Source of the DNA: an uncultured Alphaproteobacteria bacterium
GTDB lineage: Bacteria > Pseudomonadota > Alphaproteobacteria > CAAHEQ01 > UBA3637
Length of the DNA: 64,000 bases
Direction: 5' to 3'
NCBI GenBank assembly: GCA_944392125.1
Contig: CALXVP010000001.1
Coordinates: 132,325-196,324, forward strand
Positions 41,212 through 58,404 of this stretch are shown one piece after another. Under the pieces are notes generated by a model that was given only the letters and a program-made list of their open reading frames with translations, searched no databases and had not been told where the DNA came from. Position 1 is the stretch's first letter. Every line of letters starts with the position of its first letter. A program made the translations under genes and the position numbers.

Positions 41212-41748
41212 TTATACCAATAATAAGATAGCCGTTGAAAAGCCGACGAGTATTTCCGCCCACTCTGTCGGCTTTTTAATGTATCCCCAATCATATAAAT
41301 ACCAGCAGACGGCATATATATTTGTTAACACAATTCCGGCAAAAGCGAAAGAAGGTTTCATTAAAATGAGTGAAATCAAAACAGCCGGACCCGTGTATCT
41401 GATAAGCATCACAATATAATCGCACCCGAATCCATATAATGCCACATTCGGGATATACTTCTTCAGATATTTCCAATACCACAATTGCTCATAGCGAGAT
41501 TCATCCGGTTGGGTTTGTCTGCCTAAATCAAAGCAACACCCATGTGAACGCGCCCAAAATAAACCTTGCAAACAAAGTGCAACGCATAAACTTTGAAGCG
41601 GAAGATAATGATTCAAATATAATACACTCGCACAACATAAAAATCCGATTACATGTTGCAAGAAACGATTATCGCCTAATGCATCAAATCCACCGCCAAA
41701 CCAACGACGCCAACATCCTAAAAATAAAATATATATCATGTTTATCAT
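41212..41748 (-). CDS. hypothetical polytopic membrane protein at the distal end of the phage-like late operon (possible moron)
   Basis: ORF with 4-5 hydrophobic segments. Its start overlaps the o-spanin stop by 4 nt. Confidence 0.3.
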   Translation of the reverse strand: MINMIYILFLGCWRRWFGGGFDALGDNRFLQHVIGFLCCASVLYLNHYLPLQSLCVALCLQGLFWARSHGCCFDLGRQTQPDESRYEQLWYWKYLKKYIPNVALYGFGCDYIVMLIRYTGPAVLISLILMKPSFAFAGIVLTNIYAVCWYLYDWGYIKKPTEWAEILVGFSTAILLLV

Positions 41749-41966
41749 TTGATTGTTCCTTTTTCATGATTGCTTTGACACATTCCATACGCCATTTTGT
41801 AAGCTCTGTAATTCAACCATAAATCCCGCACGGTTTGATTCCGGCGCTCTATCACCGGCGGACACATATTTTCATAAACATATATTGGTTCACTGTGGCA
41901 AGCAGTCAAAAATATCAGTATCAAGCAACTGCTGACAATTTGGTTTTTCCTCCATAAGTTTTTCAA
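41745..41966 (-). CDS. o-spanin (outer-membrane lipoprotein, Rz1-like)
   Basis: Lipobox LILIFLTAC. 73 aa. Embedded in the +1 frame in the 3' end of the i-spanin gene, adjacent to the endolysin. Confidence 0.45.
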   Translation of the reverse strand: MKNLWRKNQIVSSCLILIFLTACHSEPIYVYENMCPPVIERRNQTVRDLWLNYRAYKMAYGMCQSNHEKGTIK

Positions 41967-42228
41967 GACGTTTCTCCTCGTTTAGTTGGAACGCACATAG
42001 GGTTTCCGTATGTTGCCGTATTTGATTCAATAAATTGTGTGATAACGTTTGTTTCAATTCCGCTTGGGCAACGGCCTCGGCTCTTTGTTGCTCTTTCATT
42101 CCGCATAAATAAGCTACAAAAAGGGAAGCAATCCAGATAAGGAGAATATAAATTATCCGTTGCAAATTATTCCTCGTTTCATCATATCGGCTAAGGTTTT
42201 CGCGCGTTTGCCCACTTGCGTTGCCCAT
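41890..42228 (-). CDS. i-spanin (Rz-like; N-terminal TM + coiled-coil)
   Basis: TM segment IIYILLIWIASLFVAYL followed by a charged helical region. Its 3' end overlaps the o-spanin. Confidence 0.45.
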   Translation of the reverse strand: MGNASGQTRENLSRYDETRNNLQRIIYILLIWIASLFVAYLCGMKEQQRAEAVAQAELKQTLSHNLLNQIRQHTETLCAFQLNEEKRLEKLMEEKPNCQQLLDTDIFDCLPQ

Positions 42229-42575
42229 TTACTCGTTAACATTTCTTGCCCGGCAACGGCAAAATTTCCGATTTCAACGGCTTTCAACATTTTTTTAAAT
42301 CCCTTTAATCGGACCAATCCTAAATTAAAGCACATTTCGCAGATAACGCTTTGTCGCACTTCATCTAAATCGGCATACCAAGGAAATGATGATAAGCATT
42401 CTTGATGACACCGTTGTAAATCATTTTCCAATAAATAGCGCGCCTCGCTTTCGGTAATGCCCACATCGTCTAAATTGCGCCCGATACCGATTGTCAACTT
42501 CCCTGCCGTGCATCGATAAGGTTTTAACTTGACTCCCTCATGGCGTATAACACGCTCAATAAATTCCTCTTTCAT
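42153..42575 (-). CDS. endolysin, glycoside hydrolase family 24 (T4-lysozyme-like)
   Basis: RHEGVKLKPYRCTAGKLTIGIGRNL contains the catalytic Glu/Asp/Thr arrangement of the GH24 lysozymes. Confidence 0.75.
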   Translation of the reverse strand: MKEEFIERVIRHEGVKLKPYRCTAGKLTIGIGRNLDDVGITESEARYLLENDLQRCHQECLSSFPWYADLDEVRQSVICEMCFNLGLVRLKGFKKMLKAVEIGNFAVAGQEMLTSKWATQVGKRAKTLADMMKRGIICNG

Positions 42576-42593
42576 CGTTTATTTTATCCTTCC

Positions 42594-42965
42594 TTATTTA
42601 AACAAAAAGGTTCCGATTTCACCAACGGAAACGCCGAATGTGGCACACAACAATGTAATCAATACATAAATAAAAACCTTGTTGCTCAATACTTCTTTTA
42701 ATGTAGCGGAAATGCTGGCGCGATTGGTGCATAATTCCAACACTCTGTCAATTTTGGCATCCAGCGTTTCTACTTTACGCTCAACCGCATCTACTTTCTT
42801 TTCTAAATCCGTCATTCGGTGTTCCAATTTTGAAAAATCTTCACATTGTTTTTCGTGTAATAAAATGGCGGCTTTTGATAAGCCGCCTTTACGTGGTTGT
42901 CCTAAAATTACATCCAGAGCAACCCTTTGTTCACACATTTTTTTCCTCCGATTCATCAACATCAT
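42594..42965 (-). CDS. putative holin / lysis-associated membrane protein (coiled-coil + C-terminal TM)
   Basis: Position immediately upstream of the endolysin. A single C-terminal TM (VFIYVLITLLCATFGVSV). No family-level match. Confidence 0.3.
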   Translation of the reverse strand: MMLMNRRKKMCEQRVALDVILGQPRKGGLSKAAILLHEKQCEDFSKLEHRMTDLEKKVDAVERKVETLDAKIDRVLELCTNRASISATLKEVLSNKVFIYVLITLLCATFGVSVGEIGTFLFK

Positions 42966-43332
42966 GATTTATATTTTTCCACTCATCAAATGTTTGAATT
43001 ACCACATTCGGAAATGCCTCATCACTCGGTAAATCCCGCAAGTATTGCCGATATTGTTTATAGGCTTCTCTTTCTTCTTCCGTTATCGGATAATCAGGAA
43101 GCATAAAAACATCGGTTGATTGCAAAACGGTATCACGCTCGGCTCGCTTTTCCGATTTTTGCAATTCTATCGGTTTTTCGGGAGCATAACCCAATAGATA
43201 CCAACTTCCGTTATAGGCTTGCTCTACTTCTTGTTCAGTCATTCCGATAGATTGATAAAATTCAATATTTGTTCCTGTTCCTACCGAACATTCTTTTGTT
43301 TCTTCATTTTCTATTTTCGCATATTTCAGCAT
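42931..43332 (-). CDS. tail-fibre assembly/chaperone-like protein (paralogue of 45546-45875)
   Basis: The N-terminal 70 aa are about 60% identical to 45546-45875 (NEETKECSVG.GT..FYQSIGM.E..VEQAYNG.WYL.GY.P.KP). Lies directly downstream of a fibre gene. Confidence 0.4.
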   Translation of the reverse strand: MLKYAKIENEETKECSVGTGTNIEFYQSIGMTEQEVEQAYNGSWYLLGYAPEKPIELQKSEKRAERDTVLQSTDVFMLPDYPITEEEREAYKQYRQYLRDLPSDEAFPNVVIQTFDEWKNINHDVDESEEKNV

Positions 43333-43333
43333 T

Positions 43334-45178
43334 TTACGCTCCTTTCAATGGATAATACACCATTTTACTTGTTGTTTTTGGACTATCTATTGTTATAATA
43401 TCACCCTTGTTTAAAAACAGGTTTTGTGTTTGCGTTATTTGATTAACAGTATTCGTAACAAAACTTGATACTGTGCTACCATTCATTGTTATTACGCCGC
43501 CATTTCCGTTTTGATAATCACATATACCTATCAGAGAAAATAAACACGGAACAGGTGCTGTAAAACTCGTTCCGCTTATACTAACTCCGGCACTGTAATC
43601 AGGCATTCCCCAAGCAATAATGGTTTGTTTTCCCGTTGGTGTAAAATTATTTGCATTTATATAATCAAATTCATCAACCGCTTTGAAAGTTTTTCTCAAA
43701 TTAAATGATGTGATTTTTCCAGCGGAAACATCAACAGTTCCAATTATACACGAATCACTTTTAACTCCATTATTTTCGTTTATATTCAATTCATAATTGT
43801 ATGTATAACCGTCTGACAATAATGATATATCTTGGGCATTTCCTATAACGGTATATCTCCCTGTTTCTGTTGTTCCGTTAGTTATAGTAATTACATTACT
43901 TGTTTTATATGCGTAGTTATTTGAAGTGCCGTCCGAATCTCGTCCATCCGGAATTAAGCCCTCAACACCGGGCAATGAAAAGATAGTGTTCCCAATATAT
44001 CCGAATCCATTGAATGTTTGTTCGATTGATATAGGAACTCCATTAGAAACATTTACAATAGCTAAAGGAAATGACCAGTTAGATTCTTGCAAAACACCTG
44101 AATTATAAAAATCAACAGACTTTGTTGAAGTATTGTAAAACATTCCTGTGCCAACAGGAGAAATGGCACCGGAAGAACAATCAGACACATTTTGATTGCA
44201 GTATGCTTTATCTTGCTTTGTAGAGTAAAAAATAAACTTTATATTATTTCCTGAACACAACACAATGTAATCCTTGTTTAAACTAATTGCATTACCTGCG
44301 CCATCATATACCTTACTTCCGGCTTTCAGTGTCAGCGTGCCATCAGTTAATTCAAGTTTAATATCTTGTGGTATTGATTTAATACAATTTGCAACATTGT
44401 GAAACGTTATAGCTCCTGAGGATTGCACTGTTTGATTAAACGCATCTGTTTTGTCTGCCGCGTTTTGATTAAAAACATTTGTTGCGTCTGCTACATTTTG
44501 GTCAAAAGCATCTGTTTTATCTGCCACGTTTTGATTAAAAACATCTGTTTTATCTGCCACGTTTTGGTTAAAAACATCTGTTTTATCTGCCACGTTTTGG
44601 TTAAAGACATCTGTTTTATCTGCCACGTTTTGATTAAATGCATTTGCTGTAGTGATGAGTGTATCTAAACTATTCGCAGCACTTATGGCGCTTGTTTCGG
44701 CAGCTTGCGCTTTTACTGTGGCAACGGATGCCTGCTCTACCGCTGTCTGAGCTGACAAGGTAGCTGATGAGGCACTATTTTCGGCACTTGTAGCACTTGC
44801 AGACGCCTCATTTGCCATTGTTGTGGCGGTGGTTGCCTGCGCGATTGCCGTGCTTGCTGCCGTTTGGGCACTATTAACAAGTGGCGAAATAATGGTATCC
44901 GTTATCTCATTTATTTCAGGGATAATCGTATTTTCAATATATTCGTCCACCGTCGGTTTGGCTATTTCATTCACAATTTGCGAAACAAGCGGTTTTGCCT
45001 GCGTCTCTACATAATCCGAAATTTCGGGCTTTGAAACGGTATCAACATATTTTTGTATTTCCGCTTCCCCGCTTTTGATGAAAAGTAAAGAAGCATTATT
45101 ATCAATATGCGCATTTTCTTCGTAATATACTTGAATTGCATCATCTTTGACTAAATTAACATTGATTGTTTGCTCCAT
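43334..45178 (-). CDS. tail fibre protein with an internal 11-aa (33-nt) tandem-repeat stalk
   Basis: Seven roughly NQNVADKTDVF repeats. An Ala/Thr/Ser-rich coiled stalk. A C-terminal beta-rich domain. Confidence 0.6.
   Translation of the reverse strand: MEQTINVNLVKDDAIQVYYEENAHIDNNASLLFIKSGEAEIQKYVDTVSKPEISDYVETQAKPLVSQIVNEIAKPTVDEYIENTIIPEINEITDTIISPLVNSAQTAASTAIAQATTATTMANEASASATSAENSASSATLSAQTAVEQASVATVKAQAAETSAISAANSLDTLITTANAFNQNVADKTDVFNQNVADKTDVFNQNVADKTDVFNQNVADKTDAFDQNVADATNVFNQNAADKTDAFNQTVQSSGAITFHNVANCIKSIPQDIKLELTDGTLTLKAGSKVYDGAGNAISLNKDYIVLCSGNNIKFIFYSTKQDKAYCNQNVSDCSSGAISPVGTGMFYNTSTKSVDFYNSGVLQESNWSFPLAIVNVSNGVPISIEQTFNGFGYIGNTIFSLPGVEGLIPDGRDSDGTSNNYAYKTSNVITITNGTTETGRYTVIGNAQDISLLSDGYTYNYELNINENNGVKSDSCIIGTVDVSAGKITSFNLRKTFKAVDEFDYINANNFTPTGKQTIIAWGMPDYSAGVSISGTSFTAPVPCLFSLIGICDYQNGNGGVITMNGSTVSSFVTNTVNQITQTQNLFLNKGDIITIDSPKTTSKMVYYPLKGA
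44425..44650. repeat. roughly 33-nt tandem repeat array (about 7 copies) inside the tail-fibre gene
   Basis: acgttttg(a/g)ttaaaaacatctgttttatctgcc repeated head-to-tail, seen directly. Confidence 0.8.
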
Positions 45179-45185
45179 TTCAACC

Positions 45186-45545
45186 TCACTTTGTTATTTG
45201 TTTTGTAATGCGCAATACGCCGACCTTATTAACATCGGACGGGAAAAATGTATGCACACGCCCGTCAGGCATTTGAAACTGCATATCTGTTTGATAATCC
45301 CCAATATCTATATTCGTGTCGCTGGGCGTTAAGGTTAAGCAAAAAAGACCCTTTTGAATGTCAATCGGTTCTGCTGTTTTTGATAAAACAGGCTCTCCGC
45401 TTTCATTCACTGCCTGCATTTTGATAACGCTGTTTGTCATATCAATCGGCGTTCCGCAGGGAATTCTGAATTGAAAATATAAGTCATAACTATCTCCTTG
45501 ACGAATAGTTATGATATTTGATAATGGACTAATTTTGCCTGTCAT
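45186..45545 (-). CDS. phage hypothetical protein (small beta-rich)
   Basis: ORF located between fibre module 1 and fibre 2. Confidence 0.3.
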   Translation of the reverse strand: MTGKISPLSNIITIRQGDSYDLYFQFRIPCGTPIDMTNSVIKMQAVNESGEPVLSKTAEPIDIQKGLFCLTLTPSDTNIDIGDYQTDMQFQMPDGRVHTFFPSDVNKVGVLRITKQITK

Positions 45546-45875
45546 TTATCCCTCCAACTCGTTAATTTCCAAACGCCATTCTTTGCGTTCCAGAATTTTC
45601 TCCGAATACTCTTCTTTTGTTGCCGAACCCTCGGCAATTTTCACAACGATATAATCCGTATCCGCAAGTTTTTGCTTCAACTCGGCAATTCTTTCCGAAT
45701 TTATTACAGATTGTGGCTTATCGGGTACATAGCCTGCTAAATACCATCGCCCGTTATAGGCTTGCTCTACATCGGCTTCTTGCATACCGATTGATTGATA
45801 AAATTGACTATCCGTTCCAATTCCTACCGAACATTCTTTTGTTTCTTCATTTGTAACCAACACATATTTTTTCAT
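45546..45875 (-). CDS. tail-fibre assembly/chaperone-like protein (paralogue of 42931-43332)
   Basis: Shared N-terminal domain with 42931-43332. Lies directly downstream of a fibre gene. Confidence 0.4.
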   Translation of the reverse strand: MKKYVLVTNEETKECSVGIGTDSQFYQSIGMQEADVEQAYNGRWYLAGYVPDKPQSVINSERIAELKQKLADTDYIVVKIAEGSATKEEYSEKILERKEWRLEINELEG

Positions 45876-45876
45876 A

Positions 45877-46773
45877 TTATTCTCCTATCGGATAAAAAGT
45901 TACGCTGACGCCTGTAAATGTAATTTTTTGATTTTTCCCCACCGAAAAACCTGCATTATCCGGAGCCCCGTAACTGGCACCCCACGACGATTCAAAAACT
46001 CGGACAGAATCAATATCCAGCCATGATGTTCGGTTATTTCCGCCGGCACGAACAACACAAAGGCCATTGGAAGGCGTCGTATATCCCGAGCTAACGGAAA
46101 TAGCCCCCTTATAATCGGGAGTCCCTTTTTCTTTGATAAATGTATTTAGCCAGCTTGTTGTAACAATATCTTGGCAATTACTCTCTAAATCGGGCGTAAC
46201 GGCATGCGCATACATACCCGTCTTTTCCGAGTATCCTAATATAATCGCCTCACCTGCACTTTCATTCGTCAAAGGATTATAAACAACTCCCGCTACTTGC
46301 ATTGCATTATCGGCACTTTGAGATGCGCTTAATTCAAAAAGCAACGTTTCTCCGGCATTGGTTTTAAAGGCAATGGCAGGTGTTTGAATCGTCTTGTCGT
46401 CATAAATCGATTCAGTTTGCACGGTTATGTCTGATTCATTTACCACAACACCACTGTTAAATTGTTTGATACCCGAAGCTGTTTCATCACCCGTTTTATG
46501 CAAAGCCGTATCAAATTGGCGTTTATTTACGGCATCGCTTGCAACAGTTCCGTCAGCAACATTTTTGATTTGAAAATTATTCATATTTAAACTACCGCTT
46601 AACGGAACACGTCCGTCTCGCAAAAATGCCAAGTTCAATCCGTTAGCAAAATTATCATCTTCTTCATCATGCCTATCAGAAACAATATCAATTTCATTCA
46701 CACGATCTTCTTCCCAAGAATGAATTCTCGTAAAATTCCCCTCACTATCAAACGGCATATTCTCTCCTTTCAT
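45877..46773 (-). CDS. tail fibre / receptor-binding protein
   Basis: FQIKNVADGTVASDAVNKRQFD is the widespread phage tail-fibre motif (…NV.D…DAVNK.Q.D). Confidence 0.6.
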   Translation of the reverse strand: MKGENMPFDSEGNFTRIHSWEEDRVNEIDIVSDRHDEEDDNFANGLNLAFLRDGRVPLSGSLNMNNFQIKNVADGTVASDAVNKRQFDTALHKTGDETASGIKQFNSGVVVNESDITVQTESIYDDKTIQTPAIAFKTNAGETLLFELSASQSADNAMQVAGVVYNPLTNESAGEAIILGYSEKTGMYAHAVTPDLESNCQDIVTTSWLNTFIKEKGTPDYKGAISVSSGYTTPSNGLCVVRAGGNNRTSWLDIDSVRVFESSWGASYGAPDNAGFSVGKNQKITFTGVSVTFYPIGE

Positions 46774-46920: not shown

Positions 46921-47601
46921 TTACTTAGACCCAAACAAGCGTGAAACTCCGCTGATTAAAGAATTTGTTAAAGCCAGTTGATTATTAGCTGCTTGTTGTT
47001 TTGAAGCATAATTATTTGCCGCAATGTTATTGGCTGCCGCATAAATATCCATTTGCTTATCATATTCACTGAGCGAACCGTTCAAAAGCGATTGCAATAG
47101 GTTGATGTAATTTTGATTTGCCGTTGCCGTATAGTTACCGACATCAATTTGATTCGCCAAACTTTGTGTGAACGCATCTTGTCCGTTTAATACAGATTGG
47201 TAGGCAGCTTGATTTAACGCATCATTTTGCGATGATTGCAAATCACTCATGGCGCGACTATATGCTTCTGATCCCACAGGTAATCCTTTATTTTGTAATG
47301 ATGTTGCCAAATCGCTCGTTTGGTTTTGAAATTGGGGTGTTAATTTATCCACATAGGCTTGATATGTGGCATTTTCGGCCCGTTGACGCGCAGCATCACT
47401 ACCATCCACATTAAACGTATAATTCCCGAGCGTATTTGCTAAATTTTGACTCATGGAATTGGCAGCCGTTGTCATATTTGAAAGCGTATTATCCACATTT
47501 GACGTATTGATTCCCTGCAAATAATTGATTAAATTTTGTGCCCCGCTGTTATCATATTTAACCGTGCCTGTTCCCGTAATACTCTTAAATGCTTTACTCA
47601 T
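46921..47601 (-). CDS. Q/N/S/A-rich virion protein (possible internal/ejection or tail protein)
   Basis: Low-complexity composition within the structural module. Confidence 0.3.
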   Translation of the reverse strand: MSKAFKSITGTGTVKYDNSGAQNLINYLQGINTSNVDNTLSNMTTAANSMSQNLANTLGNYTFNVDGSDAARQRAENATYQAYVDKLTPQFQNQTSDLATSLQNKGLPVGSEAYSRAMSDLQSSQNDALNQAAYQSVLNGQDAFTQSLANQIDVGNYTATANQNYINLLQSLLNGSLSEYDKQMDIYAAANNIAANNYASKQQAANNQLALTNSLISGVSRLFGSK

Positions 47602-51924: not shown

Positions 51925-52890
51925 CTATTCGGCATTATTAACCAAAACACCTTGTAAAGCGGCGTTAGACATTGTTAAGTTTCCAGCCCAACCGATTAAT
52001 TTATACAAAGCATCTTGATTGATTGCCAAACGATTACCCTCAATGGCGCGCATATTCCGATCTTTATGCGGTCTTAAATATAAGTAGTTCGTATTTAAAA
52101 AATACATGTGATCCGCAGGGCACGCACCCCCTTGACCACCGTCAAACAGCACATCGGCGCCTTTAAATTTCAAAGAGACGATACCGCCGTCGGCAACGGC
52201 CGGATTGGTAAAGCGTTGTAAATCCGTTAAAGAATCTTCAAACATGGTATAGAGTTTATCATCGGCAACAATTAAATCCGGTTTATCCACACCGCGCGAG
52301 CATTTTAAATATAAGTCGTTCATCTTTGTGCGGATATTCTCTTTTGTTAAGGTATCCGTCACGGCTTGATTTCGCCAAAATTCATTACCCGTTGTGGCGC
52401 GGTTAATGTTGCCGACGGTGCCCGTTGTCGGCGTATCGGCAACCAACAGTTTCAATCCGCCGATGGATTTACCGTCATTTTCCGTTCCGTCACCGTATAA
52501 AGCCATCGCCATTTGATTGGACATTGCTTTTTCCGCATTATTCAAGCGTTTTTCAAACAAATCAATCATCCGTTGTGAACCGGCATTTTTCAACATTTCT
52601 TCACCGGTAATAGCAACGGGAACGGCGCACATTTTTAACGGATATTCCGCAGCCGTAAATAATTGTTTCGGCGTATAAGTAATCGTATCATAACCCGAAT
52701 ACCAAATCACATCACCCAATCCATACTCTAATTCTTCCAAGATTTTTGTTCCGCCGTCAATCTCTTTAATTTTATCTTTTTGGCTTAAACGCGATAATAA
52801 CACATTATTTTTCGTTACGTTATCTGCCATATCTTTAGAACGGCACTCAACTGCGGTTGTAAATAAATCATTATAGTTTGGATTACTCAT
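51925..52890 (-). CDS. major capsid protein (candidate)
   Basis: 321 aa. Position after the scaffold-like gene. Gly/Thr-rich loops typical of HK97-fold coat proteins. Confidence 0.5.
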   Translation of the reverse strand: MSNPNYNDLFTTAVECRSKDMADNVTKNNVLLSRLSQKDKIKEIDGGTKILEELEYGLGDVIWYSGYDTITYTPKQLFTAAEYPLKMCAVPVAITGEEMLKNAGSQRMIDLFEKRLNNAEKAMSNQMAMALYGDGTENDGKSIGGLKLLVADTPTTGTVGNINRATTGNEFWRNQAVTDTLTKENIRTKMNDLYLKCSRGVDKPDLIVADDKLYTMFEDSLTDLQRFTNPAVADGGIVSLKFKGADVLFDGGQGGACPADHMYFLNTNYLYLRPHKDRNMRAIEGNRLAINQDALYKLIGWAGNLTMSNAALQGVLVNNAE

Positions 52891-52902
52891 TTATTTTTCC
52901 TT

Positions 52903-53700
52903 TCAATTCATTGTGTTAAAAAGTTCTTCAAGCTCCTGCCGAAATGTTTTCTTTGCTTTTGATTCGGCGCTTGCTTTTGAGTGCGGCGAAAACGAAGCCT
53001 CTTTGGCCTTTTGAGCCGCCGCCGCTTTACGGTTCAATTCATTATCGGCATAAACGGCAAGTAATTGCTTACGCACGTTATTATCCAGCCAAATGGCTTT
53101 TTGATAAGCATCATCAATATCATCTGCCATTCCCTTCCGAATTAAATCGGCCATGGCGGGACGAACAAAATCAAAATACGGATGTTTATAACTTCCGCTG
53201 TCATCTTTTTCCGCCTGATAGGCCGTCACCTTTTCACGGTATTTAAAATTCGGCGTATACGGCATGCCGACACCGTATATCTCACATAACTCACGAATGA
53301 TTCCTTTCGGATTTTTTTCCATTTCATCATCTATTTGCGTTAAGAATAAAAAGTAATCATGCGGTGTTTTAAACCCGATATTTTCTAATCGGGCTTTTCG
53401 GTTTAAAAACGTTTGCTCTACCCAATCATACGGATTTGTTTTTTCGGTTTCTTGACGTATGGACTGACTGATTTCCTCCGCCACCTTTTGCTTTCCAATC
53501 ACGGCATTATTATCTTTTTCTACGCTTTCCACAGCTTCTTTTTTTTGAGCTGACTCCTTTTCTTTTTGGGATTTTGAAGACTGTTCCATCAATCTCTTCA
53601 CAGCCTCCATAAATTTAAAAAAATCGTCCGATTTTATCTCATCGGGCGATTTTGCTTGACATGTGAGTTTATCACATTTGGATTTTTCATCACTCATACC
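52903..53700 (-). CDS. scaffolding-like protein (highly charged, helical)
   Basis: Lys/Glu-rich, predicted helical. Immediately upstream of the capsid gene. The start is placed at MSDEKSK. Confidence 0.4.
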   Translation of the reverse strand, partial: GMSDEKSKCDKLTCQAKSPDEIKSDDFFKFMEAVKRLMEQSSKSQKEKESAQKKEAVESVEKDNNAVIGKQKVAEEISQSIRQETEKTNPYDWVEQTFLNRKARLENIGFKTPHDYFLFLTQIDDEMEKNPKGIIRELCEIYGVGMPYTPNFKYREKVTAYQAEKDDSGSYKHPYFDFVRPAMADLIRKGMADDIDDAYQKAIWLDNNVRKQLLAVYADNELNRKAAAAQKAKEASFSPHSKASAESKAKKTFRQELEELFNTMN

Positions 53701-53902
53701 AAATTCCTTTCTTAAACAAATGAATAATATCAGCCCGCAACTTTGCGCGCTGTTTTTGGTTTTCCCGAAACCGAACATTATCAAGATAAGCTTTTGAATA
53801 ATCACCGGCCAATGCGTTACCGGAACGTTTTAAGTAGCTATCAATATCGGCATAGGATTCGGCAACACTGCCGTCGGGCAAACAAATCGGTTCTTTGAGC
53901 AT
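53690..53902 (-). CDS. small phage hypothetical protein
   Basis: ORF only. Confidence 0.25.
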   Translation of the reverse strand: MLKEPICLPDGSVAESYADIDSYLKRSGNALAGDYSKAYLDNVRFRENQKQRAKLRADIIHLFKKGIWYE

Positions 53903-53999
53903 ATTTTTCGTCCTTATACTTCACGATATACGGCAATAAAGATTGTTGATTCAATTTATCTGCAACAAATGTTATTTATTAATTGAAAGCAACACTTCA

Positions 54000-54230
54000 T
54001 TAACCCGGATTTAATACATTGGCTAATTCTTCGCGTCTGCTCTCATCATACATTTTTTCCCATTTTTTTTGCTTTAACAATTCTTTGATTTCGGACCATT
54101 TTTGTCCTTGTTGATAATTTTGAATCATTGCATCAAAATTAACGGATTGTCCTTCTTTTACTTTCGGTCGCGTTAACGTGCCGATTTGCGCAATTAACCC
54201 GGCGCTGTTTTCTCTTAAATTCATACTCAT
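54000..54230 (-). CDS. small phage hypothetical protein
   Basis: ORF only. Confidence 0.25.
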   Translation of the reverse strand: MSMNLRENSAGLIAQIGTLTRPKVKEGQSVNFDAMIQNYQQGQKWSEIKELLKQKKWEKMYDESRREELANVLNPG

Positions 54231-54297
54231 TTTTCCCTTTCAAAACGTTCTCACTCTATCTGATACAAACGATGCCTTATGATTAACAATTCAACTT

Positions 54298-54603
54298 TCA
54301 GTCGGCATGCGCCATATATTTCATTATATTATCGGGAGCAATTTTTTTTCTTTCTTGAAAACGGCGGTAATAATCAAGCCATTGTTCAAACTGCTCACGC
54401 GGAGATTTATCCATAAATCGCCTCAATGAATTTTCTCTTTTGTGCGGAATGGTTATTGAATCCGTTGCGGAAATTGTTTCTTCCCCACTCAAAAATTCAT
54501 CCGATAAACCGCCCTTGCCGGCTTCTTCCGCTAATTTTTTAAGCAATAAATCAATGTAAGCCTGTTCGGCTCTTTCACTTGTAAATTGATTTTTAGAATA
54601 CAT
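54298..54603 (-). CDS. small phage hypothetical protein
   Basis: ORF only. Confidence 0.25.
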   Translation of the reverse strand: MYSKNQFTSERAEQAYIDLLLKKLAEEAGKGGLSDEFLSGEETISATDSITIPHKRENSLRRFMDKSPREQFEQWLDYYRRFQERKKIAPDNIMKYMAHAD

Positions 54604-54647
54604 TTTTATTCCTTTATAAAAAAATAAACGTGAGAATCAATTAAAAA

Positions 54648-56243
54648 TTATTCTTTCAACTCGGTTTCAATTTTTTGAAATACTTGCCCGATAACAGGTT
54701 CGTATTGACGTGCCGTCGGCATTGTCATTGCGATACTCTCCAACATTTTTTGATATAACGGTAAAAGCAAAGGTTGATTGGAAACAACCTCAAATGCTTT
54801 GATGATGATTTCGTTAATTAATGTAACAGATTCCAATGTGGCCTTTGCCGTATTTTCGTTTTGGTAAGATATATCCGTTTCTATTCCGAGAATCATCCCG
54901 CGCAATTTATCCGTTTTTAATAAACGAATAGCCTCATCAACCGCTTCTTGATTTGATAAATCTTCCGCCTGCAAAAACGAACGCAACGAGTCTTCCGAAA
55001 ATAATTCGCAAATCATTTCGGCTTTAATGCGCAATAAATCGGTTATAAAACGAAGCATATCATTTTGTCTGTCTTGATTGCGCAAAGTGCCGAAATTCGT
55101 TTTTTTGGTAACGGCGGTTGCCGTTTCAGACTGATTAGACGTGCCACGCATAATATCCGAAACACCCGTGATTTCGTAAATTTGTTTAGATAAATCTTCC
55201 CGTCGTTGCGCCAAAGCCTGCAAAGCTTCCACATATTGCGTAATCGGAATAAAATCTATTGCACCGCGAATACCGCCCACTTCTTTCAAACGATCAAATT
55301 CCGGAATGGAAACAAGTGTAACGTCTTTTTCAAAAATATCCGCTAACCGACTAAATGAATTATCATACACGCCACTCACTTTTAACGCTTTCATTGTTAA
55401 CCGCATGCGTTCATTGATGCCATCCATTTCATTTAACATTGTTCGGATTTGAACAAAATCGGGGACGGGCACCAATCCATCATTTGCCAATGTTGCAAAA
55501 ATGGGCTTGGGAAACGGGAAAAAACCATCTAAATGCAAATAGTCTTCAATGATTTTTAAAAACCTGTTCGGCAGAGATTCCGTTAAATACTTAACGGTTC
55601 TATCCGTTTTATCCCAAATTTCGTAGATAACAATCTGATTTTTATCATCACCTGAAAGAGATTGAAAAATATCATCACCGAATTGTTCACGCGCTTCTTT
55701 AACCGTCATGTTAATTTTTCGGGCAATCCAGGAAACATCTTCCCAAACATTAACATTTTCCGTATCAATTAAAAAATCTTTCGGCGATACGTAAACGGTA
55801 TCCACTTGCTCCGTTTCAATAATATCCACTTGATTTTCTGCGTCCAACGTCTTAAAGACCGGTTGATATTTTTCATAGCAAACCCCCATACCCACCAGCA
55901 AAAAATCATTTCTGGCGTATTTAATTACACTATCAAAATCAAAATGAGATAAATTCCAATCAAGAGCGCGTTCCATTATTTTACAAGCCAATGCCGCCGA
56001 TTGATTCGTTGATTTATCTTTTCTTTCAATATACGGCTTTGGCGTTTTAAAATATAAAAACGGTTTAAGCGTTTCAATAGAAGACCAAAACAAGTTATTG
56101 ATGTTTTTATTTTTATCGTTTTTATAATAGTTTCTTATTTTATCAATCAATTCATGATAATCTTTATATTTTTCTTTGGACTTTTGAATTCTATGCAGCC
56201 ATACATCAACCGCCATCGGATTCACTAAATTATCCTCTTGCAT
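54648..56243 (-). CDS. portal protein (candidate)
   Basis: 531 aa. Position between TerL/GroES-like and the scaffold/capsid genes. Acidic helical C-terminus. Confidence 0.55.
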   Translation of the reverse strand: MQEDNLVNPMAVDVWLHRIQKSKEKYKDYHELIDKIRNYYKNDKNKNINNLFWSSIETLKPFLYFKTPKPYIERKDKSTNQSAALACKIMERALDWNLSHFDFDSVIKYARNDFLLVGMGVCYEKYQPVFKTLDAENQVDIIETEQVDTVYVSPKDFLIDTENVNVWEDVSWIARKINMTVKEAREQFGDDIFQSLSGDDKNQIVIYEIWDKTDRTVKYLTESLPNRFLKIIEDYLHLDGFFPFPKPIFATLANDGLVPVPDFVQIRTMLNEMDGINERMRLTMKALKVSGVYDNSFSRLADIFEKDVTLVSIPEFDRLKEVGGIRGAIDFIPITQYVEALQALAQRREDLSKQIYEITGVSDIMRGTSNQSETATAVTKKTNFGTLRNQDRQNDMLRFITDLLRIKAEMICELFSEDSLRSFLQAEDLSNQEAVDEAIRLLKTDKLRGMILGIETDISYQNENTAKATLESVTLINEIIIKAFEVVSNQPLLLPLYQKMLESIAMTMPTARQYEPVIGQVFQKIETELKE

Positions 56244-56261
56244 TTTTTTCCCTTTCTTTTT

Positions 56262-56528
56262 TTATTCGTTTTCATAAATGCCCAATAAACTGGCTTGCCG
56301 TATCACAATCACATTCGGATCATACGTCGGCAACTCCTCCCACCTGTAAAACAAAACCTCATCTCCCGCCTTTACGCATTGAACCAGTGGTCCTACCGAT
56401 TCTACAACACCGCGCGTCGGCGCCTCTGTCTGCGTCAGCAAAACACCGCCGGCACTTTTATTTTGCGGTTGAATACGCACAAATATACGATCCATCACAG
56501 CTTTTATCATCCGTTCAACTCCTTTCAT
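56262..56528 (-). CDS. GroES-like co-chaperonin (Hsp10 fold)
   Basis: DRIFVRIQPQNKSAGGVLLT...RGVVESVG...VKAGDEVLF...VIVIRQASLLGI aligns with the GroES mobile-loop and beta-barrel motifs. Confidence 0.55.
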   Translation of the reverse strand: MKGVERMIKAVMDRIFVRIQPQNKSAGGVLLTQTEAPTRGVVESVGPLVQCVKAGDEVLFYRWEELPTYDPNVIVIRQASLLGIYENE

Positions 56529-56679
56529 TTTCTATTGATAAAATCTCAACTTGAATCTCATGATAAAACAAGCCATACATTTTTGGATAAAAACGATTGC
56601 TCCATGCAACCGAGATTCTGACTTTCAAATTTATCATCAACTATGTTCTTTCGCCGAATGCGGAGAATATCTTTATAAA

Positions 56680-58005
56680 TTACCACTCGTTCCGGGATGA
56701 ATGAGATAATCGATTGGCATCCGAAAACATTTTTTCTATGGTAATTCGTCCGTTACCGTAAAATGTATCCTCACCGGTATCATAAACAGGTTCGGCAAAT
56801 GTCAGTGCAAGCGCATCGGCTTTATCGGGAGAACGCCCCAACCTTTTTTTAACTTCCTCTTTTTCTTCCAGTTGCAACCGCCCCATTTTATCATATTTTT
56901 TATTTACCGAGACCAGCTCATCCAACAGGCTTTCATCATACGGCAGTTGAACGGCCTCACCGAGCCAAGCCCGAACGGAATCCCACATTTCAGCCCGCCT
57001 GTTTGTATACCGATCCGAATTAATGGCTTTTTCGCCGAAATAAATACCACGCACGATTCTTCCGTAACCTCTGTCTTTCAAAATATCATAAACGCCGGCA
57101 CCTTGCCCGCCGATATCCATAAAAACTCTGGCCGGATGATACTGTTGTATGAAATGTGTCGTTAAATTAGCAACCTCAACCGTATCATATTGATTATAAA
57201 CTTCAAAACGGGAACAAAGTCGCCCTTTCCGAAAACAAAAAACCGTGGAATCATCACCAAATCGTGCAATATCCAACCCGATAATCAACGGACTTGTGGA
57301 AGATATGATTTTTGCCTCAAAAGCACGTCTGACCATTTCGGCATTCATCAATTTTGTATGCCCTTGTCGCACCGGTTCTCCCAACCAAATATGTGCATAA
57401 TCCTCCGGATTTTGTTGACGGGATTTTTCGGCCTGTATTTTTAACTCTTCGGAACAAAACGGATTATCGCAATAATTTACTTTAACCACCAACGTTCGTT
57501 CATCGGGATGACTGCCGACAGCCACCCATATCGGATCATTTTCGGCCTCGCGATTCATGGAAATCCAAATTTCGGATCCATCTTTACGAATGGTCGGTTC
57601 CAAAATTTCCCATGATTTTTTCGTTATGGTTTGCGCTTCCTCAATCCAAGCAATATCCGTTCCTTCCAGTGATTTAATTTTTTGCGGATCTTGATCTCTT
57701 AATCCCTTAAAAACAATTCGTGAGCCGTTTTTTAAATTGATGATTTCATCCGCCTTAATTTGCCAATTGGGCAAGCCGTGCACCGAAATTCTATCCGCAA
57801 TCAATTTATATACCGAATCCCGAATTGATTCTTGCACCTCCCGTAAACAAACCGCAAATAGTTTTTTACGCGTTGCCCTTACCAACAACGCATCGGCAAA
57901 CGCATACGACTTTCCACCGCCACGACCGCCGTAATACAATTTAATCCGATATTTTTTTGTAATCAACGGCAAGAACGGGCGGGCAATTTGAATATTAACC
58001 TGCAT
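56680..58005 (-). CDS. terL: terminase large subunit (PBSX/Terminase_3-like)
   Basis: Walker A YYGGRGGGKSY, Walker B-like IAWIEEAQ, and a C-terminal RNaseH-like nuclease region with conserved Asp (LDIARFGDDSTV). Confidence 0.85.
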   Translation of the reverse strand: MQVNIQIARPFLPLITKKYRIKLYYGGRGGGKSYAFADALLVRATRKKLFAVCLREVQESIRDSVYKLIADRISVHGLPNWQIKADEIINLKNGSRIVFKGLRDQDPQKIKSLEGTDIAWIEEAQTITKKSWEILEPTIRKDGSEIWISMNREAENDPIWVAVGSHPDERTLVVKVNYCDNPFCSEELKIQAEKSRQQNPEDYAHIWLGEPVRQGHTKLMNAEMVRRAFEAKIISSTSPLIIGLDIARFGDDSTVFCFRKGRLCSRFEVYNQYDTVEVANLTTHFIQQYHPARVFMDIGGQGAGVYDILKDRGYGRIVRGIYFGEKAINSDRYTNRRAEMWDSVRAWLGEAVQLPYDESLLDELVSVNKKYDKMGRLQLEEKEEVKKRLGRSPDKADALALTFAEPVYDTGEDTFYGNGRITIEKMFSDANRLSHSSRNEW

Positions 58006-58065
58006 CTTTATAATCCTTTTTTATCACCGGATAATTTAAAAATAAAACCGCTGTCAAAAGTTGTT

Positions 58066-58404
58066 TTACTGAGAATCAGCCCCACTATCCGCATGCATTT
58101 CGTTAACGGCGCCGTCTGATACTTTAACAATTTTTTTCTTCGCTTTTTCTTTCTTTTTTTTAGGGGTTGCCGATTTTGAATTTAATTCGACAACCTCAAT
58201 TTTTATTTTATCAACGGATTCATCTTGTTCTGTTTTCCCTTTCTCACCGATTAAATCACGAATCACCTCAAACGCACGAATATCTCCTCCCGAGGCTTTT
58301 TCAAATAACGCCTGCAATAAATTATTTTGAAGTTCCTCATTTTGCATCATATCAATCATGGCGGCACGCAATGTCCGCTTGCCTTGTTTTACTTTTTTCA
58401 TCAC
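58066..58404 (-). CDS. terS: terminase small subunit (candidate)
   Basis: 112 aa. Immediately upstream of terL. Helical N-terminal DNA-binding-like domain with a Lys-rich tail. Confidence 0.45.
   Translation of the reverse strand: MMKKVKQGKRTLRAAMIDMMQNEELQNNLLQALFEKASGGDIRAFEVIRDLIGEKGKTEQDESVDKIKIEVVELNSKSATPKKKKEKAKKKIVKVSDGAVNEMHADSGADSQ

What the first reader, a model, noticed from the sequence alone, without database searches (positions are those of the whole stretch)
41745..58404. 16.7-kb phage-like head/short-tail/fibre/lysis cluster with no integrase, replication or regulation genes: prophage remnant or GTA-like element
Roughly 27 co-directional genes encode terS, terL, GroES-like, portal, three small proteins, scaffold, capsid, four virion proteins, a 517-aa putative hub, GNAT, a Q/N-rich protein, two fibre plus chaperone pairs, holin-like protein, GH24 lysozyme and i/o-spanins. 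No tape-measure, tube or sheath gene is present, which implies a podovirus-like morphology. The cluster is bounded on one side by a convergent GT2 gene (40141-41193). On the other side a 630-bp AT-rich non-coding stretch is followed by cellular-type genes (FtrC-like, pgpA). Nothing resembling an integrase, excisionase, repressor, primase or polymerase lies between those boundaries. A packaging-competent particle gene set of this size, lacking its own replication module and sitting in the chromosome of a likely alphaproteobacterium, resembles gene transfer agents. It may equally be a degraded prophage.
Basis: partly seen in the sequence, partly recalled or inferred. Interest (0 to 1): 0.6.

Follow-up and report, generated by a model that had tools for sequence, protein, structure and literature searches.

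The report
Domesticated short-tailed phage particle cassette
A 17-kb block of intact phage head, short-tail, fibre and lysis genes, with no integration or replication genes, has been kept by selection in the chromosomes of many uncultured gut Alphaproteobacteria, which makes it a candidate gene-transfer-agent-like element rather than a decaying prophage.

Summary
Window 41212-58404 (minus strand) holds 25 intact co-directional ORFs: terS-like, TerL, GroES-like, portal, scaffold-position gene, Mx8-like capsid, tail proteins, a tubular-tail-B-like 517-aa protein, GNAT, two fibre/chaperone pairs, endolysin and spanins. No integrase, repressor or replication gene lies inside or within about 10 kb. 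There is no tRNA or att repeat at the borders, and cellular genes sit on both sides.

New evidence argues against a decaying remnant. A sister species (87% nt identity) has the cluster at the same site. Its synonymous divergence (mostly 0.2-0.7) is similar to that of the flanks (0.38-0.79), and dN/dS is 0.01-0.05 for core genes. Every conspecific contig long enough to show it carries the cluster. A roughly 340-nt upstream leader is about 94% conserved.

Thirty species-level MAGs carry the same reduced cassette. In one clade it sits at one locus beside an S24 repressor and co-diverges with host flanks. Larger related contigs (31-38 kb) carry extra genes, including 2.5-4.7 kb where podophages encode internal virion proteins; the cassettes lack these.

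Caveats: one conspecific strain lacks the cassette, several copies are decayed, and the reduced form may not be monophyletic. Particle production and DNA content are untested.

Verdict: a domesticated podophage late-gene cassette, a GTA-like candidate and a new variant of a known kind.

The parts
58405..58745 (-). Conserved non-coding leader/promoter region upstream of the first gene. It contains TGTCGCA/TTGACG repeats (58700-58740), two copies of TTGTGGTATARGG (58517, 58674) and a conserved 34-aa small ORF (58537-58641).
   Evidence: About 94% identical to L001, whereas adjacent genes have dS about 0.5 and the stretch further upstream is about 65% identical. Motif copies. No Rfam match. Fold z-score only -1.4. 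The 34-aa ORF is called on public contigs.
58066..58404 (-). Small-terminase-like protein (112 aa); the assignment is weak.
   Evidence: Position before TerL. phrog_2412 (unknown function), 1.6e-7. No Pfam hit. A 36% homologue sits before TerL in L035. dN/dS 0.155 vs L001.
56680..58005 (-). Terminase large subunit.
   Evidence: phrog_3717 2.8e-55 and phrog_2 1.3e-50. Pfam Terminase_6N/Terminase_3 on the identical protein. dN/dS 0.039.
56262..56528 (-). GroES/Cpn10-like co-chaperonin.
   Evidence: phrog_3188 1.6e-10. Pfam Cpn10. Conserved between TerL and portal across the family.
54648..56243 (-). Portal protein.
   Evidence: phrog_12082 9.8e-104. P22_portal (faint). dN/dS 0.030.
53690..54603 (-). 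Three small proteins (101, 76 and 70 aa) of unknown function. The 70-aa one is conserved family-wide; the other two occur only in the window lineage.
   Evidence: No family hits. Clusters. The g70 homologue (c11) is present in nearly all loci. dN/dS 0.06-0.18.
52903..53805 (-). Scaffold-position protein (300 aa by the longest ORF; 264 aa in public gene calls).
   Evidence: Position between portal and capsid, as in pCB2047-C where that gene is annotated head scaffolding. No family hit. Conserved at 25-34% across loci.
51925..52890 (-). Major capsid protein, Mx8-like.
   Evidence: phrog_9953 3.2e-100. 48% identical to the Mx8 major head protein; 45-46% to BUCT555 and ppBjS10J-1; 29% to Brucella Tb-group. 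dN/dS 0.025.
51322..51867 (-). Lineage-specific 181-aa protein, fast-evolving.
   Evidence: Present only in the window and L001. 63% identity, dN/dS 0.37. No family hit.
50612..51265 (-). Conserved virion/tail-proximal protein (217 aa).
   Evidence: phrog_20268 3.7e-8. Present in all 30 genome loci. Not a detectable paralogue of the next gene (hhalign probability 0.3%).
49903..50619 (-). Tail protein (adaptor / tubular-tail-A position).
   Evidence: phrog_6013 'tail protein' 1e-29. Syntenic with the pCB2047-C 'tail protein'. dN/dS 0.048.
48229..49782 (-). 517-aa tail hub, tubular-tail-B-like protein.
   Evidence: phrog_5107 1.3e-78. Homologues are annotated 'tubular tail B protein' (phiGT1), 'phage stabilization protein', 'neck protein' and 'head closure protein'. 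27% identity, E 6e-51 to pCB2047-C gp7. At least 635 database clusters. dN/dS 0.028. No PDB sequence homologue.
47594..48088 (-). GNAT acetyltransferase embedded in the virion module.
   Evidence: phrog_4470 5e-28. Acetyltransf_4 (weak). Same position as the acyl-CoA N-acyltransferase of pCB2047-C.
46921..47601 (-). Q/N-rich virion structural protein (226 aa).
   Evidence: phrog_6121 3.5e-17. 30% identical to the pCB2047-C virion structural protein. dN/dS 0.012. Sequence.
45546..46773 (-). Fibre 1 (298 aa) plus its chaperone-like partner (109 aa).
   Evidence: Tail-fibre PHROGs for the N-terminus. YadA_stalk (weak). The 109-aa protein clusters with the tail-fibre-assembly protein. The 175-nt junction is repeated at 76% identity (D2).
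45186..45545 (-). 119-aa minor tail protein (BppU_N-like in relatives).
   Evidence: phrog_1084 1.4e-11 and phrog_6183 minor tail 8e-5. BppU_N (weak) on homologues.
42931..45178 (-). Fibre 2 (614 aa, with 33-nt tandem repeats at 44393-44656) plus a tail-fibre assembly chaperone (133 aa).
   Evidence: phrog_4912 tail fiber assembly 1e-15. Phage_tail_APC. Repeats: D1. The distal part, 43341-44601, cannot be aligned with L001. 57% aa identity, dS 1.26.
42594..42965 (-). Holin-position protein with a coiled coil and one C-terminal TM segment.
   Evidence: Position before the endolysin. TM segment at residues 92-110. No convincing family hit. dN/dS 0.014.
42153..42575 (-). GH24-type endolysin.
   Evidence: phrog_7 endolysin 7.5e-23. 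Pfam Phage_lysozyme.
41745..42228 (-). i-spanin (41890-42228) and overlapping o-spanin (41745-41966).
   Evidence: Rz-like spanin PHROGs, 4.6e-3 and 1.3e-6. N-terminal TM segment in the i-spanin; signal plus LTAC lipobox in the o-spanin.
41212..41748 (-). 178-aa hydrophobic, Trp-rich membrane protein; the last gene of the cassette, function unknown.
   Evidence: Overlaps the o-spanin stop. 92% conserved in L001, with a 29% homologue at the same position in L018. dN/dS 0.089. No family hits.
40141..41193 (+). Convergent family-2 glycosyltransferase abutting the cassette end. It may be a former lysogenic-conversion gene; membership of the element is uncertain.
   Evidence: GT2. phrog_22739 GtrB-like O-antigen conversion 2.9e-10. 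Local GC 0.36. GT2 homologues are inserted inside the cassette in L024/L025.

Best explanation
The cluster is the late (virion plus lysis) half of an Mx8/pCB2047-like temperate podophage. It has been fixed in the chromosome without its integration, immunity and replication genes, and selection has kept it working: a domesticated, GTA-like particle cassette.

Shown:
- a complete, intact set of packaging, head, short-tail, fibre and lysis genes
- no mobility or replication genes
- the same locus in a sister species, with cluster divergence equal to flank divergence
- strong purifying selection on core genes
- rapid turnover of the fibre tip
- a strongly conserved upstream leader
- the same reduced architecture in 30 species

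Inferred mechanism. A host-controlled signal acts on the conserved leader/promoter at 58405-58745 and switches on the single operon in a subpopulation of cells. Terminase then packages chromosomal DNA in situ, because the element cannot excise or replicate. If the head keeps the roughly 38-40 kb capacity of its phage relatives, headfuls starting near terS would carry the whole cassette plus the downstream chromosome (GT2, HdeD, PFOR and beyond). That is a lateral-transduction-like mode which would also explain how an integrase-less cassette is replaced or spread by flanking homology. If the head has become smaller, packaging would be classically GTA-like. Holin, endolysin and spanins then release the particles.

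The cassettes lack the 2.5-4.7 kb that larger relatives carry between the virion protein and the fibres, which is where podophages encode internal virion (ejection) proteins. Delivery into the cytoplasm would therefore probably depend on recipient competence functions, as in RcGTA and BaGTA. Alternatively, the particles may act without delivering DNA at all.
For: Gene content and boundaries:
- Complete late-gene set; nothing else phage-like within about 10 kb on either side.
- No tRNA or att-like repeats at the borders.

Comparison with the sister species L001:
- 87% nt identity, colinear across 21 kb including both flanks.
- Flank dS 0.38-0.79; cluster genes mostly 0.2-0.7.
- dN/dS: capsid 0.025, portal 0.030, TerL 0.039, hub 0.028, virion protein 0.012.
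- Every contig carrying the identical GT2 (12 contigs) or PgpA (14 contigs) that extends far enough shows the cassette; no empty site was seen. The contigs come from several samples of two assembly series plus Logan runs.
- The leader is about 94% conserved, against dS about 0.5 in neighbouring genes.

Family-wide evidence:
- 30 species-level MAG loci carry a colinear cassette. Their flanks, where visible and tested, are cellular (phosphodiesterase, M23 peptidase, FlgE, nitroreductase, LD-carboxypeptidase, AsmA) with no integrase seen.
- In the clade with a shared locus, cassette distances track flank distances: Mantel r = 0.78, p = 1e-4 vs M23 (9 loci), and r = 0.97 vs FlgE (5 loci). Cassette proteins diverge less than FlgE.
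- Related full-size phages exist. pCB2047-C (40.9 kb) has the same late-gene order plus integrase, repressor and primosomal protein. There are also roughly 38-kb IMG/VR contigs, and 31-38 kb gut contigs with extra genes.
- The distal fibre region has been replaced between the sister species. This suggests selection on adsorption specificity.
Against: - There is no direct evidence for particles, for packaged DNA, or for transfer.
- The capsid's nearest phage relatives have 38-49 kb genomes. The GTA hallmark of a capacity smaller than the locus may therefore not hold.
- One strain, 98.4% identical in its flanks to L011, lacks 14.9 kb of the cassette.
- Several copies are truncated or rearranged: L016/L018 lack terminase, L024/L025 are rearranged, L026 lacks the portal, and L012 has a split portal.
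- The cassettes occupy at least four or five different chromosomal contexts.
- The window lineage groups with larger contigs in the hub tree (90/100) but not in the portal or TerL trees. The reduced form may have arisen more than once, or it may recombine with phages.
- The extra genes of the larger relatives are 'internal virion proteins' by position only.
- A 17-kb scaffold of a related cassette was deposited as 'Bacteriophage sp.' from human faeces. If it came from virus-like particles, it could mean self-packaging.
Confidence: 0.55

Rival explanations
1. It is a cryptic prophage remnant. The cluster is what is left of a prophage after deletion of its early region. It has no current function and is simply decaying slowly.
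For: No integrase, repressor or replication genes. Some family members are clearly decayed or deleted. Cluster GC is slightly below the flanks, 0.386 vs 0.416.
Against: All 25 ORFs are intact in both the window and L001, despite about 13% nucleotide divergence and dS about 0.5. dN/dS is 0.01-0.05 for core genes. The non-coding leader is about 94% conserved. The same complete architecture is kept in most of 30 species. Neutral decay over that divergence should have produced many frameshifts and stop codons.
Confidence: 0.08
2. It is a still-mobile minimal phage or helper-dependent element. The roughly 17-kb unit would be the whole genome of a small temperate element. It would rely on host functions, or on a larger related helper phage, for replication, integration and ejection proteins, and it would package itself.
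For: A 16,998-bp scaffold of a related cassette was deposited as a bacteriophage from human faecal samples in Mexico. A virome study of DNase-treated particles from that setting exists, but I could not link the accession to it. There is a presence/absence polymorphism within one species. Chromosomal contexts differ between lineages. Larger relatives that could act as helpers coexist in gut metagenomes. Gene trees are mosaic.
Against: Divergence equals that of the flanks at the same site in two species. Distances co-vary with host flanks. The element is fixed in all conspecific contigs that show the site. No att repeats, and the one 'empty' site has a junction inside a cassette gene with unrelated filler, which looks like a deletion or replacement. 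No recombinase lies next to any cassette examined, apart from a truncated resolvase near the 5'-truncated copy in L018. A satellite would not need a full virion gene set.
Confidence: 0.2
3. It is a domesticated particle used for something other than gene transfer. The possibilities are a PBSX-like killer particle, a lysis or DNA-release device, or a superinfection or adsorption decoy. DNA packaging would be incidental.
For: The block that in relatives sits where internal virion/ejection proteins are encoded is absent (PMC10386132). Fibre tips turn over quickly, as in tailocins. In the large clade an S24 CI-like repressor sits divergently next to the operon, as in SOS-inducible pyocins and PBSX. 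[quoted passage not shown]
Against: Terminase, portal and capsid genes are under the strongest purifying selection. That would be unnecessary for a pure killing device, because headless tails suffice for tailocins. Short podovirus tails are not known to kill on their own.
Confidence: 0.17

Closest known systems
Temperate podophages of the Mx8 / Brucella Tb / Sulfitobacter pCB2047-C and phiGT1 lineage
   Same: Same late-module order: TerL, portal, small protein, scaffold, capsid, virion protein, tail protein, tubular-tail-B-like protein, GNAT, virion protein, fibres, lysis. Capsid 48% identical to Mx8. Hub 26-32% identical to phiGT1, pCB2047-A/C and others. Podovirus morphology of these phages is documented (PMC10386132, PMC4047441).
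   Different: No integrase, repressor, excisionase or replication genes, and none of the large genes between the virion protein and the fibres. About 17 kb instead of 38-49 kb. Chromosomally fixed and co-diverging with flanks.
BaGTA (Bartonella gene transfer agent, Bartogtaviriformidae)
   Same: An alphaproteobacterial host-associated element. The core cluster is of similar size (about 14 kb, 11-13 genes), with a similar run of gene sizes: 330-bp hypothetical, TerL 1344 bp, portal 1863 bp, 840 bp, 1119 bp..., 1464 bp, tail fibre (PMC3610622). BaGTA TerL is reported to nest with Sulfitobacter phages pCB2047-C and NYA-2014a (PMC9662315), whose hub, GNAT and virion proteins are homologous to those here. 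BaGTA co-evolves with its hosts, and uptake needs recipient competence genes (PMC9662315, PMC5496983).
   Different: Direct homology to BaGTA proteins could not be tested because no Bartonella sequences were reachable. No run-off-replication module or dispersed accessory loci were seen here. The window capsid and portal show no BLAST similarity to pCB2047-C. Function is unproven.
FpGTA of Faecalibacterium (gut, podovirus-like GTA-like element)
   Same: A gut commensal; inferred podovirus-like particle; operon of packaging, head, tail and lysis genes without replication genes; near-ubiquitous in its host genus (PMC12946183).
   Different: Firmicute host. Two operons of 10.5 and 5.5 kb. Packaging of 8.4-8.9 kb random fragments was measured for FpGTA; nothing has been measured here. 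No sequence comparison was made.
PBSX / SOS-inducible defective prophages and pyocin-type regulation
   Same: A chromosomal phage-derived particle cassette that cannot propagate. In the large clade it is controlled by an adjacent S24/CI-type repressor.
   Different: PBSX is myovirus-like and unrelated in sequence. The window copy has no adjacent repressor.
RcGTA-like clusters (Rhodogtaviriformidae)
   Same: An alphaproteobacterial, roughly 15-kb head-to-tail structural operon that is vertically inherited.
   Different: RcGTA is siphovirus-like, with a prohead protease, tube and tape measure. None of these is present here, and the capsid, portal and tail proteins belong to podophage families.

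Membership tests
Gene transfer agent (functional definition / viriform criteria) | Chromosomal cluster encoding a phage-like particle (packaging, head, tail, lysis) | tested here: met
Gene transfer agent (functional definition / viriform criteria) | No genes for its own replication, integration or excision | tested here: met
   None found inside the cluster or within about 10 kb on either side. This is limited to what family models can recognise; 10 small or unknown ORFs remain unassigned.
Gene transfer agent (functional definition / viriform criteria) | Vertical inheritance with the host, with purifying selection | tested here: met
   Same locus in L001; dS matches the flanks; dN/dS 0.01-0.05. 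Co-divergence with flanks in the clade that shares a locus. Caveats: a loss polymorphism, decayed copies, and unresolved monophyly.
Gene transfer agent (functional definition / viriform criteria) | Particles package essentially random host DNA rather than their own genome | not testable with these tools
   Needs sequencing of particle DNA.
Gene transfer agent (functional definition / viriform criteria) | Head capacity smaller than the coding region needed to make the particle | not testable with these tools
   The capsid's relatives are phages with 38-49 kb genomes, so this may not be met. No structural data.
Gene transfer agent (functional definition / viriform criteria) | Transfer of packaged DNA to recipient cells | not testable with these tools
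   The host is uncultured.
BaGTA-like (Bartogtaviriformidae) | TerL and capsid group with BaGTA homologues | not testable with these tools
   No Bartonella sequences could be retrieved. Indirect evidence only: the hub and the TerL N-terminus are homologous to pCB2047-C, whose TerL nests in the BaGTA clade (PMC9662315).
BaGTA-like (Bartogtaviriformidae) | Coupling to a run-off replication origin and dispersed accessory genes | tested here: not met
   Nothing phage-like elsewhere in the parts of the 64-kb window that were examined. Not all ORFs in 1-20 kb were scanned.
RcGTA-like (Rhodogtaviriformidae) | Siphovirus-type cluster with prohead protease, tube and tape measure | tested here: not met
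   No such genes; podophage-type proteins instead.
Intact Mx8/pCB2047-like temperate podophage (ordinary prophage) | Late structural and lysis module in the family order | tested here: met
Intact Mx8/pCB2047-like temperate podophage (ordinary prophage) | Integrase, immunity repressor and replication module contiguous with the late genes; att repeats | tested here: not met
   pCB2047-C has all of these.
Intact Mx8/pCB2047-like temperate podophage (ordinary prophage) | Large internal virion (ejection) protein genes between tubular tail B and the fibres | tested here: not met
   The gap between the virion protein and the first fibre is 151 bp in the window and at most 420 bp in the other cassettes where both genes were found (L025, a rearranged copy, is the exception). 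It is 2.5-4.7 kb in larger relatives. pCB2047-C has 643-aa and 670-aa genes there. The identity of those genes as ejection proteins is positional (PMC10386132).
Capsid-forming phage satellites (cf-PICI-like) | Integrase, regulator and replication genes, with tails supplied by a helper | tested here: not met
   No integrase or replication genes; a full tail and fibre set is present.

The most novel reading that the evidence does not exclude
This would be a previously unrecognised lineage of gene transfer agent with podovirus morphology, widespread in uncultured gut Alphaproteobacteria. It would derive from the same Mx8/pCB2047-like podophage stock that may also have given rise to BaGTA. It has shed its early genes and its ejection-protein block. 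It would package chromosomal DNA in situ from a fixed locus and depend on recipient competence for uptake, and it would spread or replace itself by recombination in the flanks.
Probability: 0.3. Interest if true: 0.8.

Novelty: new variant of a known kind. Interest (0 to 1): 0.6.

Why it matters
Experimentally supported GTAs are few. According to a 2026 study (PMC12946183), the Faecalibacterium element is the first GTA-like element from the human gut and the first with podovirus-like morphology.

A second, unrelated, podovirus-type candidate that is conserved under selection in dozens of gut alphaproteobacterial species would broaden the picture in three ways:
- It would show how often phage late modules are domesticated.
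- It would offer a natural series for studying the steps of domestication: full-size relatives, then repressor plus late operon, then late operon alone, then decayed copies.
- It would give virome studies a concrete locus to look for. Reads starting at terS and running into the chromosome would indicate lateral, in situ packaging; even short fragments would indicate GTA-like packaging.

If homology to BaGTA were confirmed, it would push the origin of that system beyond Bartonella.

Tried and rejected
1. att sites and tRNA targets. No tRNA lies at either border and no convincing direct repeats were found.
2. Known RNA element in the conserved leader. No Rfam hit at E <= 1, and the fold z-score is only -1.4.
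3. Leader motifs elsewhere in the cluster, as possible internal promoters. No further copies beyond chance.
4. S24 repressor, c15 or c17 homologues in the window. None found.
5. 'Dual tubular tail A' (the 217-aa and 238-aa proteins as paralogues, as in phiGT1). hhalign probability 0.3%, not supported.
6. PDB sequence homologues of hub, capsid and portal. None.
7. Structure prediction of the hub from my locus-derived alignment.
8. Genes at 59.8-64 kb and just beyond as a hidden early region. The 464-aa, 793-aa, 211-aa and 535-aa products have no Pfam, NCBIfam or PHROG assignment (only two marginal PHROG hits, E about 0.005, for the 211-aa one), and pgpA plus an FtrC-like ORF lie between them and the cluster. 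They remain unexplained but show no phage signal.
9. Integrase near tRNA-Met at 25 kb. The neighbouring genes are an MFS transporter, a hydrolase and others.
10. Function of the extra large genes in the larger relatives. PHROG and tblastn searches gave only unknown-function families and scattered domain matches.
11. Linking MT835830.1 to a specific virome paper. The accession is not in the text of the candidate paper.
12. Pooled Pfam scan of 134 flank ORF representatives. Only the top 25 of 99 families are displayed, so the absence of Phage_integrase from that list is not conclusive on its own.
13. Direct BaGTA comparison.

Full report
**What is there.** The minus strand of window 41212-58404 carries 25 tightly packed, co-directional ORFs (17,193 bp, 94% coding, GC 0.386 against 0.416 to the left). 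Family scans identify TerL, a GroES/Cpn10-like protein, portal, major capsid protein, a tail protein, a 517-aa protein of phrog_5107, a GNAT, a Q/N-rich virion protein, fibre N-termini, a tail-fibre assembly chaperone, a GH24 endolysin and Rz-like spanins. Precomputed Pfam hits on identical public proteins agree. The o-spanin has a signal sequence with an LTAC lipobox, the i-spanin has an N-terminal TM segment, and the 'holin-position' protein has one C-terminal TM segment.

The small-terminase and scaffold assignments rest on position and size only. The last gene (41212-41748, a hydrophobic 178-aa protein) overlaps the o-spanin stop and recurs at the same place in another species, so the cluster starts at 41212, not 41745. 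No tape measure, tube or sheath gene is present. The capsid is 48% identical to that of Mx8 and 29% to Brucella Tb-group phages. The 517-aa protein matches proteins annotated as tubular tail B or stabilization protein in Sulfitobacter phiGT1, pCB2047-A/C, Mx8 and Brucella phages.

**Boundaries.** To the left lie a convergent GT2 glycosyltransferase, an HdeD/DUF308 protein, pyruvate:ferredoxin oxidoreductase, an ABC-F ATPase and a prolyl aminopeptidase. To the right, reading away from the cluster, come:
- a roughly 480-bp AT-rich stretch;
- a terminator-like hairpin;
- pgpA, which is confirmed;
- five ORFs with no hit in Pfam, NCBIfam or PHROGs, on an identical 369-kb scaffold that reaches about 2 kb past the window's right edge.

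No tRNA lies at either border and no convincing direct repeats were found. No integrase, excisionase, repressor, primase or polymerase was found in the cluster, its flanks, or around the tRNA genes at 25-28 kb.

**Host and family.** A scan of one genome per species with the 517-aa protein returned 30 loci. All are from MAGs titled uncultured (gut, rumen or faecal) Alphaproteobacteria or proteobacteria, at 48-96% identity. The protein database holds at least 635 clusters of this protein, named only 'hypothetical protein [Alphaproteobacteria bacterium]'. tblastn of all window proteins shows the cassette is colinear in these loci.

**This copy is maintained, not decaying.** L001, from a different species (87% nucleotide identity over 21 kb), has the cassette between the same flanking genes.
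- Nei-Gojobori estimates give flank dS of 0.38-0.79 and cassette dS mostly 0.2-0.7.
- dN/dS is 0.025 for the capsid, 0.030 for the portal, 0.039 for TerL, 0.028 for the hub and 0.012 for the virion protein.
- The cassette was therefore already at this site in the common ancestor and has been under purifying selection since.
- The exceptions are informative. The distal part of the long fibre (43341-44601) cannot be aligned at all. A lineage-specific 181-aa protein and the overlapping spanins also evolve fast.
- About 340 nt upstream of the first gene are about 94% identical between the two species, although neighbouring synonymous sites differ at about 0.5. This stretch contains repeated TGTCGCA/TTGACG and TTGTGGTATARGG motifs and a conserved 34-aa ORF. 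It matches no Rfam family.
- Every contig carrying the identical GT2 (12 contigs) or PgpA (14 contigs) that is long enough shows the cassette; no empty site was seen. The contigs come from several samples in two assembly series plus Logan runs.

**The wider family.** At least 16 species share another arrangement. It runs: host phosphodiesterase; then a small gene (c15) and an S24 (CI/LexA-type) peptidase gene, both transcribed divergently from the operon; then the operon itself, an unknown 160-aa gene (c17), a gp3-type TerS and TerL through to endolysin and o-spanin. In the 10 or so of these loci that extend past the o-spanin, host M23 peptidase, DUF2934, GtrA and the flagellar hook protein FlgE follow. 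In this clade:
- cassette protein distances track flank distances (Mantel r = 0.78, p = 1e-4 against M23 in 9 loci; r = 0.97 against FlgE in 5 loci);
- cassette proteins have diverged less than FlgE;
- the clade is monophyletic in 100/100 bootstrap NJ trees.

Other lineages sit in other contexts, such as nitroreductase, LD-carboxypeptidase and AsmA. The window copy has no S24, c15 or c17 homologue.

**Relatives that are larger.** Sulfitobacter phage pCB2047-C (40.9 kb) shows the same late-gene order, followed by integrase, repressor and primosomal genes. IMG/VR holds many roughly 38-kb contigs with the same module at 25-54% identity. It also holds 31-35 kb gut contigs at 57-72% identity that carry ParB-methyltransferase, HNH and invertase genes ahead of TerS. 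The closest hub proteins to the window (69%) lie on 32-38 kb contigs.

A simple measure separates two classes. In the window and the MAG loci where both genes were found, the distance between the Q/N-rich virion protein and the first fibre is at most 420 bp (L025, a rearranged copy, is the exception). In the larger contigs it is 2.5-4.7 kb, filled by genes of 269-317 aa and 598-848 aa. In podophages of this lineage the internal virion (ejection) protein genes lie exactly there (PMC10386132), and pCB2047-C has 643-aa and 670-aa genes at that position. The function of the extra genes could not be confirmed.

**Evidence that complicates a simple story.**
- A metagenome contig (L127) is 98.4% identical to the flanks of L011 but lacks 14.9 kb, from 95 nt inside c17 to the end of the o-spanin. 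Those 14.9 kb are replaced by about 100 nt of unrelated sequence without direct repeats. The S24 gene and c15 remain. This looks like a deletion or an allele replacement through flanking homology, and it shows the cassette is not fixed in every species.
- Several copies are damaged: terminase is missing in L016/L018, L024/L025 are rearranged, L026 has no portal, L012 has a split portal, and L017/L022 have insertions.
- In hub trees the window lineage groups with larger contigs (90/100), but not in portal or TerL trees. The reduced form is either polyphyletic or recombines with phages.
- A 16,998-bp scaffold of a reduced-type relative is deposited as 'Bacteriophage sp.' from human faeces in Mexico. 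A particle-based virome study from that setting exists, but I could not tie the accession to it.

**Interpretation.** The best-supported reading is a domesticated podophage late-gene cassette that still makes DNA-packaging particles. It is GTA-like in the evolutionary sense. Because it cannot excise or replicate, packaging would have to start in situ. Two outcomes are possible:
- With a head of ancestral size, headfuls from near terS would carry the cassette plus the downstream chromosome. This is lateral-transduction-like, and it would also explain replacement by flanking homology.
- With a reduced head, packaging would be classically GTA-like.

Loss of the putative ejection block predicts either dependence on recipient competence genes, as shown for BaGTA (PMC5496983), or a non-transfer role such as PBSX-like killing. 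These steps are inference. A neutral remnant is strongly disfavoured. A helper-dependent or still-mobile minimal element cannot be excluded.

**Comparison with known systems.**
- It is not RcGTA-like: there are no siphovirus genes.
- BaGTA is the closest known GTA. It is an alphaproteobacterial element with a core of about 14 kb and a similar run of gene sizes, and its TerL is reported to nest with pCB2047-C (PMC3610622, PMC9662315). Direct homology could not be tested here.
- FpGTA of Faecalibacterium was recently presented as the first gut and first podovirus-like GTA-like element (PMC12946183). My literature searches found no description of the present family.

I therefore rate it a new variant of a known kind, with interest 0.6.

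Noticed in passing
window 44393-44656 (inside the 614-aa fibre gene): About eight tandem copies of a 33-nt unit (11-aa repeats) in the fibre shaft (D1). Just distal to it, 43341-44601 has no alignable counterpart in the sister species L001.
   Followed up: partly
window 58537-58641 (minus strand): A 34-aa ORF inside the conserved leader keeps its length and frame in L001, with an invariant C-terminal half (ANKVADFRLY.IYMI). It is called as a gene on public contigs. It could be a leader peptide or a small regulator.
   Followed up: partly
window 40141-41193; L024 7514-8971; L025 7535-8980; L009 19891-20325: Glycosyltransferase and GtrA-type genes keep turning up with the cassette. A low-GC GT2 abuts the window copy, a GT2 is inserted inside the cassette in two rabbit-gut MAGs, and a GtrA lies about 2.5 kb from the cassette in the shared-locus clade. 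These may be relics of lysogenic conversion.
   Followed up: no
L127 10118-10222 vs L011 2019-16911: Presence/absence polymorphism of the 14.9-kb late operon within one species. There is a roughly 100-nt unique filler and no direct repeats; the S24 repressor gene and c15 are retained.
   Followed up: yes
window 59865-63668 and about 2 kb beyond (L122 1-4957): A block of five ORFs (464/460, 793, 211, 535 and 443 aa) with no Pfam, NCBIfam or PHROG assignment. The 464-aa protein has two N-terminal TM segments and a long acidic tail. The 793-aa protein is low-complexity, with Pro/Thr-rich repeats.
   Followed up: partly
window 58899-59231 (+) vs 59037-59279 (-): The 110-aa plus-strand ORF is almost certainly spurious, given its odd composition. 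The real gene is the 80-aa CPC/CPC/CHC ORF on the minus strand, just downstream of pgpA.
   Followed up: partly
L031 (MT835830.1) 12162-13901: The 17-kb 'Bacteriophage sp.' scaffold carries an extra 579-aa gene between TerL and the GroES-like gene. It has much higher GC than the window cassette, so cassette composition seems to follow the host.
   Followed up: no
alignment A1 (flank ORFs of L001-L048): A HaeIII-type restriction endonuclease with a C5 cytosine methylase, a Rha regulator and a GapR-like protein occur among ORFs next to or inside some cassettes. I did not determine which loci carry them.
   Followed up: no
L142 12823-15566 and L143 10888-13632: The larger relatives encode a 1325-aa CotH-domain protein after the fibre genes.
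   Followed up: no
window 13767-13933, 25005-25080, 28045-28120: Four tRNA genes (Cys, Asn, Met, Phe). None is adjacent to the cassette or to any recombinase.
   Followed up: yes
window 21517-22701 and 27479-27919: Homologues of the phosphodiesterase and GtrA that flank the cassette in the shared-locus clade lie 5 kb apart in the window, with ordinary metabolic genes between them. The window genome therefore has no cassette at that alternative site.
   Followed up: partly
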